This document shows, piece after piece, positions 31,701-34,700 of a stretch of 64,000 nucleotides of DNA. This stretch comes from Podarcis vaucheri (Eukaryota). Each line of letters starts with the position of its first letter. Positions within the stretch are counted from its first letter, which is position 1. The DNA lies in the NCBI GenBank assembly GCA_965113315.1, contig OZ220371.1; one strand, 5' to 3'. Made by a program: the position numbers.

Positions 31701-34700
31701 AAGTAGCAATAAACATACCAGTAAAGCTGAAAGCCTTGGCAGGTTTGTGTGAGGGCTTATCCTCATTTCTTATCAGTTAGGAGGGAGGAGGGAGAGAGCA
31801 AACAAAGCCTGCAAACAGTTACAGATAGGTAGCCCTGTTGGTCTGCCATAGTCAAAATAAAAAAAATCCTTCCAGTAGCACCTTAAAGACCAACTAAGTT
31901 AGTTCTTGGTATGAGCTTTCGTGTGCATGCACACTTCTTCAGATACACTGAAACAGAAGTTGCCAGATCCTTCTATATAGTGAGAAGGTGGGGAGGGGTA
32001 TTACTCAGAAGGGTGGTGGGAATGGGAGATTGGCAGATAGCTGAGATGAGCCTGTTGGCGACTCTTAACGACTGTAATAGGTCTTACAGGAAAAGGCAAG
32101 GGGTGAGAAGGTGAGAAATGGCTCAGTCGTGTATAATGAGATAAGAATCCAATGTCTCTGTTCAGACCAGGTCTCTCCATGGTTTTAAGTTTGGTAATGA
32201 GTTGCAATTCAGCTGTACCTGTGCAAGTTTCTTGGTGAGGTTGATGGACTTCCATTTCATGCGGCTCAATGTGGTGCCTTCCATGGTTCCAGTTACAGAT
32301 AGCTAGCCGTGTTGGTCTGCCATAGTCAAAATAAAAAAATTCCTTCCAGTAGCACCTTAAAGACCAACTAAGTTAGTTCTTGGTATGACTGGAAAGAGAA
32401 GCTGCTGAATTGCAACTCAGTGTATCTGAAGAAGTGTGCATGCACACGAAAGCTCATACCAAGAACTAACTTAGTTGGCCTTTAAGGTGCTACTGGAAGG
32501 AATTTTTTTATAAAGCCTGCAAACTATCTGCAAACTATCTGTAAAGTATCCATTCAGCTGAGCTATCCCCCCCCCCCAAGCTGTCAAGTCTCAACCTTTT
32601 GTTCACTGGTATATTGCCTTGTTTAAGTACTTATCCACAATGTTACAGTGGTACCTCGGGTTACATATGCTTCAGGTTACAGACACTTCAGGTTACAGAC
32701 TCCACTAACCCAGAAATAGTACCTCGGGTTAAGAACTTTGCTTCAGGATGAGAACAGAAATCGTGCTCCAACTGCGCGGCAACAGCAGGAGGCCCCATTA
32801 GCTAAAGTGGTGCTTCAGCTTAAGAACAGTTTCAGGTTAAGAACGGACCTCTGGAACGAATTAAGTACTTAACCCAAGGTACCACTGTATTTCAATACAG
32901 TCCTACCTTGGTTCTCAAACAGAATCCCTTCCAAAAGTCTGTTGACTTCTGAAAACGTTCAAAAGCCAAGGCATGACTTCCGATTGGCTGCAGGAGTTTG
33001 CTGCACTAAATCAGAAGCCACGAAAGCCGCGACGGATGTTCGGCTTCTAAAAAAAGTTTGCAAACCTGAACACTCACTTTTGGGTTTGCGGCATTCGCAA
33101 GTCAAAACTTTAGAGTTACAGAGCGTTTTCAACGGTTTGACGATTTATTTCACAGCCCTAGATGTCTAGTTGAGAAACATTCTTTCCAGTTAGTTATGGT
33201 GGTCTTATACTTGACTATATCTTTTAATACTAATGTGCACTAGTAAAACGGAGGTTCCGGAGACTGCATGTAAAGCTGAAATCAAGGAATAGCCAGAACA
33301 ATCCTGTTCTGGTGTGACCATTTCTACCTTTCCAGAGCTGGTGCACCAAGCAGACCTTGTCCTCCATGTAAAGCAGAGAGCTTTTAAGCCTAGCTTCCCA
33401 GGCCCTCGGAAGGTCTCACATGCGCTCTTCAGCCCTTCATGAGATCTCACATAGCCCCGTAAGATCTTGCAAGACCTTCCCAGAACTCTGACGGCAAGTC
33501 TGTGAGAGCTTAAAAGTTATGATGCATAAAGTGCTCTTTATGCATCATAGCTTTTAAGCTCTCTGCCTTGCATGTGTTTAATTTGTGCAATTGCGTGAGG
33601 CTGGCTGCCAAGCGCGCCTATTGCAAGGTGACTGTATACAAATGAATAAGGATTTTGCAGGGACAGTTACTTGGACTTGTAGCAAAGTCACAGATGCAAG
33701 AAATAAATTAGTTGAGGGCTCAGCAAGTCGCTGAGTGAATCAATCTCTTCCTTGAGAAAATTCTGAGCTGTATATAGAACTTCCAGGAAAGTAGTCTCTT
33801 CAGCAGAATGTATTTGAGCTGTTGACAGTTATTTGCACTAACCTGTCTCCGCTCTCACTTTACGTGCCCTTTCTGCCCTTTATGTCTCTCCAGACTCCCC
33901 CAGGTGCACTGGAATTGTACTTCAAACTGCAGTTCTTAGCATTTGAGCTGTGTCAATCTGAGGTTGCTTACACAGGTCTTTCAGTGTTGTGAATCTACAA
34001 AGCTACCCGTATTTAAAATTACAGTGTTACCTCGGGTTACATACACTTCAGGGTACATACGCTTCAGGTTACAAACTCTACTAACCCAGAAATAGTACCT
34101 CGGGTTAAGAAATTTGCTTCAGGATGAGAACAGAAATTGTGCAGCGGCGCAGCAGCAGCGGGAGGCCCCATTAGCTAAAGTGGTGCTTCAGGTTAAGAAC
34201 AGTTTCAGGTTAAGTACGGACCTCTGGAATGAATTAAGTACTTAACCCGAGGTACCACTGTAGTGCAGTTATGTCTCTGGCTGCTTCTCTTGTTAACATT
34301 AATATGTCTGTTCATCCAAGACTGGAACTTGTATCATTATCCATTCATCACATAGCTTTAAACATTATCCTTTGTTCAAGGTAATGTCATGAAATATATT
34401 ATTCAAGACTAAAAAACACCTGCAGATTTCCCTTTTCCTTCTTGAGACATATTTTTCACTGCCCAACAGGGTTTAGCAGAAGGTAAGGAAGGTCTTTGTT
34501 TGTTTTGTTTGTTTAGTCATTTAGTCGTGTCCGACTCTTCGTGACCCCATGGACCAGAGCACGCCAGGCACTCCTGTCTTCCACTGCCTCCCGCAGTTTG
34601 GTTAGACTCATGTTTGTAGCTTCGAGAACACTGTCCAACCATCTCGTCCTCTGTCGTCCCCTTCTCCTTGTGCCCTCCATCTTTCCCAGCATCAGGGTCT

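What the first reader, a model, noticed from the sequence alone, without database searches (positions are those of the whole stretch)
31817..32511. Compact, protein-less Penelope derivative with hammerheads on both strands (retrozyme-like unit)
Seen: one insertion bounded by a 13-bp TSD. It consists of a pseudo-LTR with an intact hammerhead, the GIY-YIG C-terminus joined at ~32213 directly to the first ~24 codons of the ORF (the whole RT is missing), a second partial pseudo-LTR, and an inverted segment with a second intact hammerhead. The cleavage-to-cleavage monomer (32386 to 31913) is about 475 nt. Inference: if the deletion already existed in the donor, this is a non-autonomous hammerhead-bounded element that could be released as a monomer or circular RNA, like retrozymes. 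Otherwise it is a one-off template-switch product.
Basis: partly seen in the sequence, partly recalled or inferred. Interest (0 to 1): 0.72.

Follow-up and report, generated by a model that had tools for sequence, protein, structure and literature searches.

The report
Rearranged, gutted Penelope retrotransposon insertion
This is one 695-base insertion of a Penelope-like retrotransposon that lost almost all of its gene while being copied in, keeping small ribozyme motifs on both strands; its layout is the ordinary one for this class and it cannot release a ribozyme-bounded RNA by itself.

Summary
The described sequence is real. A 695-bp insert (31817-32511) lies between exact 13-bp target-site duplications. 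The sense strand is the minus strand. It holds two direct 97-99-nt pLTR pieces 474 nt apart, codons 1-24 joined at 32214/32213 to the last 28 codons of an RT/GIY-YIG ORF, a 180-nt 3'UTR, and an inverted copy at the 5' end. There are two identical minimal hammerheads, one per strand, of the published Penelope "min-HHR" type. Rfam finds no hammerhead.

Two direct pLTRs, one inverted pLTR and a TSD is the published standard architecture of Penelope-like insertions. Opposite-strand hammerhead pairs 100-700 bp apart and internally deleted copies are also published.

The retrozyme reading is not supported for this locus. Each strand has only one complete ribozyme, there is no tandem, and the inverted arms should bury both ribozymes in a stem of about 110 bp.

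The inverted piece carries 15-17 nt of ORF (LEREA) that the deleted main copy lacks. Both breakpoints abut the same 16-mer. This favours a one-off product of two converging cDNAs with template jumps.

One detail is of interest: the upstream direct copy starts 0-2 nt from the hammerhead cleavage position.

Copy number of the junction in the host genome could not be checked.

The parts
31804..31816 (.). Left copy of the 13-bp target-site duplication AAAGCCTGCAAAC. Its last base C also matches the element (1-nt microhomology).
31817..31912 (-). 3' pLTR piece 'R' (96 nt), running from the hammerhead cleavage position to the 3' end of the insert (...CTATCTGTAACT).
31909..31946 (-). Minimal hammerhead A. 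Helix I is GUAU/AUAC (4 bp). Core is CUGAAGA, followed by an unpaired A. Helix II is GUGUG-CAUG-CACAC. Then GAAA, palindromic GC, UC. Predicted cleavage is between 31913 and 31912.
   Evidence: features compared with PMC4209133
31947..32126 (-). 3'UTR (180 nt). The part 31947-32074 is shared at 96% with the second copy at 8899-9152.
32127..32213 (-). Last 28 codons of the RT/GIY-YIG ORF (AELQLITKLKTMERPGLNRDIGFLSHYT), followed by CGA where P0001 and P0004 end.
32213..32284 (-). Codons 1-24 of the ORF (MEGTTLSRMKWKSINLTKKLAQVQ). The deletion junction is at 32214/32213 with a 1-nt overlap (G).
32285..32386 (-). Upstream direct pLTR piece 'R' (97 nt, 32290-32386) plus 5 nt of leader. It begins at the position homologous to the hammerhead cleavage site and has no ribozyme core.
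32387..32418 (+). ORF fragment in inverted orientation: (GA)CTGGAAAGAGAAGCTGCTGAATTGCAACTC, coding LEREAAELQL. The first 15-17 nt are absent from the main copy. GA at 32387-32388 could belong to either piece.
32419..32511 (+). Inverted copy: 3 nt, minimal hammerhead C (32422-32459, cleaves after 32455) and the first 56 nt of R, ending in a T-run at the TSD. It is joined to the ORF fragment through TCA microhomology, skipping about 250 nt.
32512..32524 (.). Right copy of the 13-bp target-site duplication.
8899..9160 (+). Independent 5'-truncated copy of the same family (3'UTR, hammerhead, R). It is 96% identical to 31821-32074 and its hammerhead has G12 changed to A (GAAA to AAAA).

Best explanation
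This is a dead-on-arrival insertion of an endonuclease-bearing Penelope-like element (PLE), made in one retrotransposition event.

Inferred sequence of events:
1. The element's protein nicked both target strands 13 bp apart, and each 3' end primed reverse transcription.
2. The plus-strand primer copied the RNA from the usual internal start (end of R) through hammerhead, 3'UTR and the last 28 codons.
3. [quoted passage not shown] That end lies at, or within 2 nt of, the hammerhead cleavage position.
4. The minus-strand primer started inside R at a U-run and copied 56 nt of R and the hammerhead.
5. It then jumped about 250 nt upstream into the ORF, copied 30-32 nt and stopped.
6. The two cDNA ends were joined head to head at 32386/32387.

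The result is two direct pLTR pieces, one inverted pLTR piece and a TSD, with no coding capacity.

As it stands the locus has one complete minimal (dimer-type) hammerhead per strand. No transcript of it can be cut at both ends. A transcript of the whole insert should fold its arms into a long duplex rather than into ribozymes.

Shown: the anatomy, the homologies and the TSD. Inferred: the order of events, priming on both strands and the template jumps.
For: Anatomy and TSD.

PLE origin:
- P0001 (585 aa; RVT_1 and GIY-YIG) ends ...NRLEREAAELQLITKLKTMERPGLNKDIGFLSHYT.
- Window 32213->32130 matches its residues 558-585 at 96%. Window 32389-32418 (plus strand) matches residues 553-562 at 100%.

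Evidence for a full-length template and a single event:
- The inverted piece holds the 15 nt coding LEREA directly upstream of the main copy's breakpoint. A template not deleted at that point therefore took part.
- Both breakpoints abut the same 16-nt stretch, which forms a perfect inverted repeat at 32198-32213 / 32404-32419. By my rough estimate this has 1-2% chance if the two rearrangements were independent, which argues for one linked event.
- Microhomologies are 1 nt (G) at one junction and 3 nt (TCA) at the other.

Published architecture:
- A partial tandem forming a pLTR plus an adjacent inverted 5'-truncated copy is typical of PLEs (PMC8557442, passages).
- Two direct pLTRs, one inverted pLTR and 8-10-bp TSDs are described, as is a derivative with an internal microhomology-mediated deletion (PMC3846280, passages).
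- The anole PLE protein cleaves and extends both strands, and starts reverse transcription internally without homology to the target (PMC11167929, main text).
- Pairs of min-HHRs 100-700 bp apart on opposite strands are described (PMC4209133).

This locus:
- One complete hammerhead per strand.
- The junction is unique in the window.
Against: - No genome of the host or its relatives could be searched, so a family of copies with the same junction is not excluded.
- A genomic deletion after insertion would leave the same sequence.
- I have no mechanism for why both jumps use the same 16-mer.
- The three R copies differ at 4 private positions in about 290 bp. The insert is therefore not brand new, and later events had time to happen.
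- The 2 nt GA at 32387-32388 can be assigned to either piece. The '5' end at the cleavage site' is therefore exact only if the full-length ORF has an xGA arginine codon there. The proteins show R at that position, but I had no nucleotide sequence of a full-length element.
Confidence: 0.6

Rival explanations
1. The insert is a member of an amplifying, non-autonomous PLE derivative. A 474-nt unit (R, 24 codons, 28 codons, 3'UTR, hammerhead) exists elsewhere as a tandem or as a processed or circular RNA. It is copied by the RT of autonomous PLEs, and this locus is one more-than-unit copy of it (474 + 96 nt).
For: - The main copy is exactly one unit plus R (570 nt), and it begins 0-2 nt from the hammerhead cleavage position. 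An RT that starts at the end of R on a hammerhead-processed monomer and jumps end to end would produce this.
- The deletion keeps the RT start region and 72 nt downstream of it. In the anole PLE the sequence downstream of the RT start is needed as template (PMC11167929).
- The distance from cleavage site to insert end is 96 nt here, and 5 nt less in copy D (91 nt). This is close to the roughly 85-92 nt that follow from that paper's numbers.
- Vertebrate retrozymes are proposed to be PLE derivatives and were found in 4 of 5 reptiles sampled (bioRxiv 10.64898/2026.07.22.740005, Results and Discussion).
- pLTRs suffice for mobilisation in trans in a rotifer (PMC3846280).
Against: - The inverted piece carries ORF sequence absent from the deleted unit, so a full-length template was present.
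- Both breakpoints share one 16-mer. That would be a coincidence if the main deletion were old.
- No junction-bearing ORF appeared in the protein searches. One search gave 1 hit among 1 candidate, without the junction. One search gave no candidate. One search gave 2 hits, neither with the junction. This is weak evidence because few lizard ORFs are in those sets.
- The junction occurs once in the window, while an ordinary 5'-truncated copy is present.
Confidence: 0.15
2. A full-length (or longer) PLE with an inverted 5' copy was inserted normally. The two internal deletions arose later in the genome, for example by repair or replication slippage provoked by the long inverted repeat.
For: - Short microhomologies at both junctions (1 nt and 3 nt) also fit end joining.
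- Before the deletions the arms would have formed an inverted repeat of several hundred bp, a kind of structure known to be unstable (general knowledge, recalled).
- There are 4 private substitutions among the R copies, which shows that time has passed since insertion.
Against: - Two separate deletions are needed, each ending at the same 16-mer.
- Nothing in the sequence requires a later event.
Confidence: 0.12
3. Assembly artefact: reads of several PLE copies were collapsed or mis-joined at short repeats.
For: - PLE tandem and inverted structures are said to cause assembly problems (PMC8557442; PMC3846280).
- The window has two N gaps elsewhere, at 40549-40748 and 47122-47281.
Against: - The exact 13-bp TSD encloses the whole unit.
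- There is no gap in or near the insert.
- The shared repeat at the breakpoints is only 16 nt.
Confidence: 0.04

Closest known systems
Canonical EN+ Penelope-like element insertions (Penelope/Poseidon/Neptune type): partial tandem forming pLTRs plus an inverted 5'-truncated copy, flanked by a TSD
   Same: Two direct pLTR pieces, one inverted piece at the 5' end, a hammerhead in the pLTR, a TSD, and an ORF with RT and C-terminal GIY-YIG in its relatives.
   Different: The ORF is reduced to 24 + 28 codons. The upstream direct pLTR is cut at the hammerhead cleavage position. 30-32 nt of ORF sit at the inverted junction. The PLE clade was not determined because no reference set was on hand.
[quoted passage not shown]
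   Same: A deleted or protein-less body between direct pLTRs, with an inverted pLTR and a TSD (passages only).
   Different: A different phylum and PLE family. I saw only text passages, no sequences or figures.
Minimal hammerheads of metazoan PLEs (Cervera and de la Pena 2014, PMC4209133)
   Same: [quoted passage not shown]
   Different: Helix II is 5 bp here against the 7-8 bp described for Schistosoma families. Activity is untested.
PAc, the Poseidon element of Anolis carolinensis (PMC11167929)
   Same: A hammerhead lies roughly 90-100 nt upstream of the 3' end of inserted copies. The insert end shows no homology to the target beyond 1 nt. Both target strands appear to have primed synthesis.
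   Different: In PAc the ORF starts inside the hammerhead and RT starts 111-118 nt into the ORF. Here the ATG lies 103 nt after the cleavage position and copies end 8-13 nt before the ATG. This is a different family.
Animal non-LTR retrozymes (PMC7229834; bioRxiv 10.64898/2026.07.22.740005)
   Same: Non-coding, related to PLE pLTRs, carrying a type I-like hammerhead, with a unit of a few hundred nt (474).
   Different: Retrozymes are head-to-tail tandems with one ribozyme per unit on the same strand, and they are seen as circular RNAs. This locus is not tandem, has one complete ribozyme per strand and keeps ORF remnants.
Twin priming of LINE-1 (5' inversion with internal deletion). Recalled; no paper was read here.
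   Same: Two converging cDNAs primed from both target strands and joined by microhomology, giving an inverted 5' part.
   Different: A different retroelement class. Here the inverted part repeats the 3' region rather than continuing the 5' region.

Membership tests
Penelope-like element (EN+), derived insertion | Single ORF with RT and C-terminal GIY-YIG endonuclease | tested here: inconclusive
   Only remnants are present. The last 28 codons are 96% identical to the end of P0001, which has RVT_1 and GIY-YIG. The first 24 codons are 54% identical to P0005 residues 71-101. The remnants themselves give no Pfam hit. Descent from such an ORF is shown; the ORF itself is absent.
Penelope-like element (EN+), derived insertion | Pseudo-LTRs from a partial tandem, often with an adjacent inverted 5'-truncated copy | tested here: met
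   Direct repeat of 99 nt at 97%, spacing 474. Inverted repeats of 95 nt and 58 nt at 98%. Compared with the descriptions.
Penelope-like element (EN+), derived insertion | Target-site duplication around the whole unit | tested here: met
   13 bp, exact, with only 2 occurrences in the window.
PLE minimal hammerhead (min-HHR) | Core boxes CUGANGA and GAAA, U-H cleavage site, helix I and helix II | tested here: met
   2 sites in the window, 0 sites in 200 shuffles. The minimum-free-energy fold of the monomer shows helices I and II.
PLE minimal hammerhead (min-HHR) | Extra nucleotide between 9 and 10.1; G10.1-C11.1; palindromic 15.2-16.2 | tested here: met
   The sequence reads ...CUGAAGA-A-GUGUG CAUG CACAC-GAAA-GC-UC/AUAC. 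The features are as listed in PMC4209133.
PLE minimal hammerhead (min-HHR) | Self-cleavage (as a dimer, or with protein help) | not testable with these tools
   The monomer fold is no more stable than shuffles (z = 0.32). The co-fold of two copies pairs the palindromic helix II strands rather than forming helix III.
Rfam hammerhead families | Score at or above the gathering threshold of a hammerhead covariance model | tested here: not met
   No hammerhead hit at the gathering score over the whole window, nor at E<=10 over 31700-32650.
Animal non-LTR retrozyme | Head-to-tail tandem repeats, each unit with a hammerhead on the same strand | tested here: not met
   No tandem of the unit was found. 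There is one complete hammerhead per strand. The second direct pLTR lacks the core.
Animal non-LTR retrozyme | Many genomic copies of the same unit | not testable with these tools
   No genome of the host or its relatives is on hand. The junction occurs once in the window.
Animal non-LTR retrozyme | Monomeric linear and circular RNAs in the cell | not testable with these tools
   No RNA data are available.

The most novel reading that the evidence does not exclude
The upstream direct copy begins at the hammerhead cleavage position, and the main copy is exactly one 474-nt unit plus R. The boldest reading not excluded is that this insert was copied from a hammerhead-processed RNA of an internally deleted PLE: a form halfway between an autonomous Penelope element and a vertebrate retrozyme that still carries ORF ends. 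That would be genomic evidence that ribozyme-cleaved PLE RNA serves as a template in vivo. The anole in vitro study could not see this in its RNA reads.
Probability: 0.15. Interest if true: 0.55.

Novelty: new member of a known kind. Interest (0 to 1): 0.27.

Why it matters
As read here it is an ordinary defective copy, useful mainly for repeat annotation. It shows how one PLE insertion can combine pLTR, inversion and internal deletion.

Two details could feed the open question of what PLE hammerheads are for:
- A copy whose 5' end falls at the cleavage position. If many insertions of this family end there, that would be evidence that the ribozyme cuts templates in vivo.
- Two template jumps at one 16-mer.

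The inverted arms also make the locus a potential source of double-stranded RNA if it is transcribed.

Tried and rejected
- Rfam scans gave no hammerhead. The sub-threshold MIR1919 and mir-2012 hits only reflect the hairpin made by the inverted repeat.
- Protein searches for other copies of the junction found none. One search used the 84-aa junction ORF at near lengths and gave 1 hit among 1 candidate (P0004), which lacks the junction. One search used the 40-aa ORF at longer lengths and gave no candidate. One search gave 2 hits; P0005 matches the N-terminus only, and P0006 has no aligned stretch and was not fetched. These sets hold few lizard ORFs, so this says little.
- tblastn of P0001 against the window found no further PLE coding remnants. 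The 4 other rows have E of 0.11 or more.
- A full-text search for the 30-nt hammerhead string found 0 papers.
- Thermodynamic folds of the hammerhead monomer and of the R-end/5'ORF region showed no special stability, so I make no claim of a conserved RT-binding stem-loop.
- I considered a fold-back (self-primed) origin of the inverted part. I rejected it because the 15-17 nt LEREA piece has no complement in the main copy.
- I did not scan the bacterial and archaeal genome collection for the junction, because it cannot answer a question about a lizard genome.
Supplements were closed, so I could not see the reptile min-HHR figures of PMC4209133, the PAc consensus and Fig. S2 of PMC11167929, or the family tables of the 2026 preprint. 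Any of these might name this family.
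Full report
**What is there**

The region was read and dissected. An insert of 695 bp (31817-32511) lies between two exact copies of AAAGCCTGCAAAC (31804-31816 and 32512-32524). These are the only two occurrences in the 64-kb window.

The sense strand of the element is the minus strand. In sense order the insert holds:

| # | Window coordinates | Content |
|---|---|---|
| i | 32511->32387 | An inverted segment (its own sense is on the plus strand) |
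| ii | 32386->32290 | A 97-nt pLTR piece, here called R |
| iii | 32289->32285 | 5 nt of leader |
| iv | 32284->32213 | Codons 1-24 of an ORF (MEGTTLSRMKWKSINLTKKLAQVQ) |
| v | 32213->32130 | Joined at 32214/32213 with a 1-nt overlap: the last 28 codons (AELQLITKLKTMERPGLNRDIGFLSHYT) |
| vi | 32126->31947 | A 180-nt 3'UTR |
| vii | 31946->31909 | A hammerhead motif |
| viii | 31912->31817 | A second copy of R |

The two R copies are 97% identical and 474 nt apart.

Read on the plus strand, the inverted segment consists of GA (32387-32388), 30 nt of ORF coding LEREAAELQL (32389-32418), 3 nt, a second hammerhead (32422-32459) and the first 56 nt of R. It ends in a T-run at the TSD.

**Origin of the coding remnants**

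- A search with the C-terminal peptide found P0001, 585 aa. P0001 has RVT_1 and GIY-YIG domains and ends ...NRLEREAAELQLITKLKTMERPGLNKDIGFLSHYT.
- tblastn of P0001 against the window matches residues 558-585 to 32213->32130 at 96%. It matches residues 553-562 to 32389-32418 on the plus strand at 100%. Nothing else in the window matches with E below 0.1.
- P0004 (56 aa) has the same C-terminus. Both proteins stop after ...SHYT, where the window has CGA.
- The N-terminal 24 codons match residues 71-101 of P0005 at 54% (E=6e-5). P0005 continues ...QIQTDIIFLSKCK, so the match supports codon 24 as the last retained one.
- At least 557 codons (P0001 residues 1-557) are missing from the main copy.
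- The remnants alone give no Pfam hit.

**The hammerheads**

Both motifs have the same 38 nt: GUAU-CUGAAGA-A-GUGUG-CAUG-CACAC-GAAA-GC-UC/AUAC. They match the features that Cervera and de la Pena list for the minimal hammerheads of metazoan PLEs (PMC4209133, text read):

- a short helix I (4-5 bp);
- a G10.1-C11.1 pair;
- palindromic positions 15.2-16.2 with no helix III loop, so that two copies must pair (AGCU with AGCU) to form helix III.

A descriptor with these features finds exactly these two sites in the window and none in 200 shuffles. I wrote it after seeing the sequence.

Evidence against calling them active:

- Rfam gives no hammerhead at the gathering score or at E<=10.
- The monomer fold is no more stable than shuffles (z = 0.32).
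- The co-fold of two copies prefers pairing of the palindromic helix II strands.
- Published min-HHRs cleave poorly in vitro, and the anole PLE ribozyme needs the element's protein.

Whether these two cleave is untested.

**A second copy in the window**

Positions 8899-9160 (plus-strand sense) hold a 5'-truncated copy of the same family: 3'UTR, hammerhead and R. It is 96% identical over 254 nt. Its hammerhead has GAAA changed to AAAA, and it ends 5 nt earlier than the main insert. It is an ordinary truncated copy and does not carry the junction.

**Comparison with what is known**

The layout is the standard one for PLE insertions.

- Craig et al. describe partial tandems that form a pLTR, often with an inverted 5'-truncated copy adjacent at the 5' end (PMC8557442, passages).
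- Arkhipova et al. describe an ORF between two pLTRs with an adjacent inverted pLTR and a 9-bp TSD. [quoted passage not shown]
- Cervera and de la Pena already report min-HHR pairs 100-700 bp apart on opposite strands and link them to truncated PLEs.
- Frangieh et al. show that the purified anole PLE protein nicks and extends both target strands, and that it starts reverse transcription at internal sites without homology to the target (PMC11167929, main text).

Here the insert ends share at most 1 nt with the target. The distance from the cleavage position to the insert end is 96 nt, and 91 nt in the second copy. This is close to what follows from the PAc numbers (cut 26 nt and RT start 111-118 nt after the start codon).

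The family differs from PAc. Here the ATG lies 103 nt after the cleavage position.

**Is it a retrozyme-like unit?**

Animal retrozymes are head-to-tail tandems with a hammerhead in each unit, and they are seen as linear and circular monomers (PMC7229834, passages). A 2026 preprint argues that they derive from PLE pLTRs and finds them in 4 of 5 reptiles sampled.

This locus does not meet the structural test:

- There is no tandem of the unit.
- Each strand has one complete ribozyme.
- The upstream direct pLTR lacks the core.

Whole-insert transcripts of either strand are predicted to pair the arm 31857-31951 with 32417-32511 (extended by the 16-mer) into a stem of about 110 bp that contains both ribozymes.

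**One-off or family?**

Two observations favour a one-off event.

- The inverted piece carries 15-17 nt (coding LEREA) that lie directly upstream of the main copy's breakpoint in full-length ORFs and are absent from the main copy. A template not deleted there took part in this very insertion.
- The two internal breakpoints abut the same 16-nt stretch, now a perfect inverted repeat (32198-32213 and 32404-32419). The main copy enters it from codon 24. The inverted copy leaves it for the hammerhead, skipping the last 23 codons and the 3'UTR through a TCA microhomology.

If the main deletion were an old feature of a donor family, this coincidence would be unlikely. My rough estimate is 1-2%, from about 30 nt in a deletion of 2 kb or more. 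I cannot explain why this 16-mer was used twice (note).

Against closing the question:

- No host or related genome could be searched.
- The protein sets hold few lizard ORFs.
- A later genomic deletion cannot be told apart from a jump during reverse transcription.

**The one detail worth following**

The homology between the two direct copies ends at 32388. The position homologous to the cleavage site is 32387|32386.

The two bases GA (32387-32388) may instead be the end of the arginine codon that precedes LEREA in P0001 and P0004. In that case the direct copy starts exactly at the first nucleotide after the cleavage site.

So the 5' end of the main cDNA template lay 0-2 nt from the ribozyme cut. 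This fits a template whose 5' end was made by the hammerhead of an upstream unit, or a processed monomer. The anole study found no RNA reads beginning or ending at the cut site and concluded that unprocessed RNA is the main substrate.

One case proves nothing. It does define a simple genome-wide test: the distribution of 5' ends of this family.

**Verdict**

- The interpretation as a compact, protein-less Penelope derivative is right. The retrozyme-like reading is not supported for this locus.
- The most likely account (about 0.6) is a single defective insertion made by two converging cDNAs, each with one template jump.
- It is a new member of a known kind and of modest interest.

**Left unchecked**

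- Junction copy number in the host genome.
- Expression.
- Ribozyme activity.
- The PLE clade.
- The papers' supplements, which were closed.

The N runs at 40549-40748 and 47122-47281 were left alone.

Noticed in passing
window 8899-9160 (+): A 5'-truncated copy of the same PLE family, inserted inside another repeat. Its hammerhead is inactivated by G12 to A (CACACGAAAG has become CACACAAAAG), and it ends 5 nt before the end of the main insert.
   Followed up: partly
window 32512-32550: The target site is a short tandem repeat, CTGCAAACTAT x3.1. Both TSD boundaries follow GCAAAC on the plus strand. The flank 32530-32544 resembles the element's own 3' end (CTATCTGTAA; 87% over 15 nt). This is possibly chance.
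   Followed up: no
window 32127-32129 (-): CGA stands where the relatives P0001 and P0004 end (...SHYT). In this copy the frame therefore runs on into the 3'UTR for 42 more codons.
   Followed up: no
window 32331-32511: The 58-nt inverted arms with a 65-nt loop give a sub-threshold Rfam match to a plant microRNA precursor model (MIR1919, 34.9 bits against a gathering score of 85). This only reflects the hairpin.
   Followed up: yes
window 32640-32760; also 29604-29642, 29762-29794, 34038-34073: SINE-like repeats with 16-17-nt tandem units (GGTTACAGACACTTCA and relatives) and the repeated motif GTACCTCGGGTTA. Several copies lie around the insert. The family was not identified.
   Followed up: no
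window 547-897 (-), 7601-8635 (-), 34516-35520 (-), 19618-20106 (+): Fragments of non-LTR retrotransposon ORFs: three with RVT_1 and one with the ALKBH8_N-type domain. The window is dense with transposon remnants, and no host exon was recognised among the 13 of 80 ORFs that I scanned.
   Followed up: partly
P0005 (library protein, 466 aa): It carries the PLE N-terminal motif twice (residues 1-35 and 70-113), followed by unrelated sequence. It looks like a read-through or chimeric prediction and was used only to support the ORF start.
   Followed up: no
window 40549-40748 and 47122-47281: Runs of N (200 and 160 bases).
   Followed up: no
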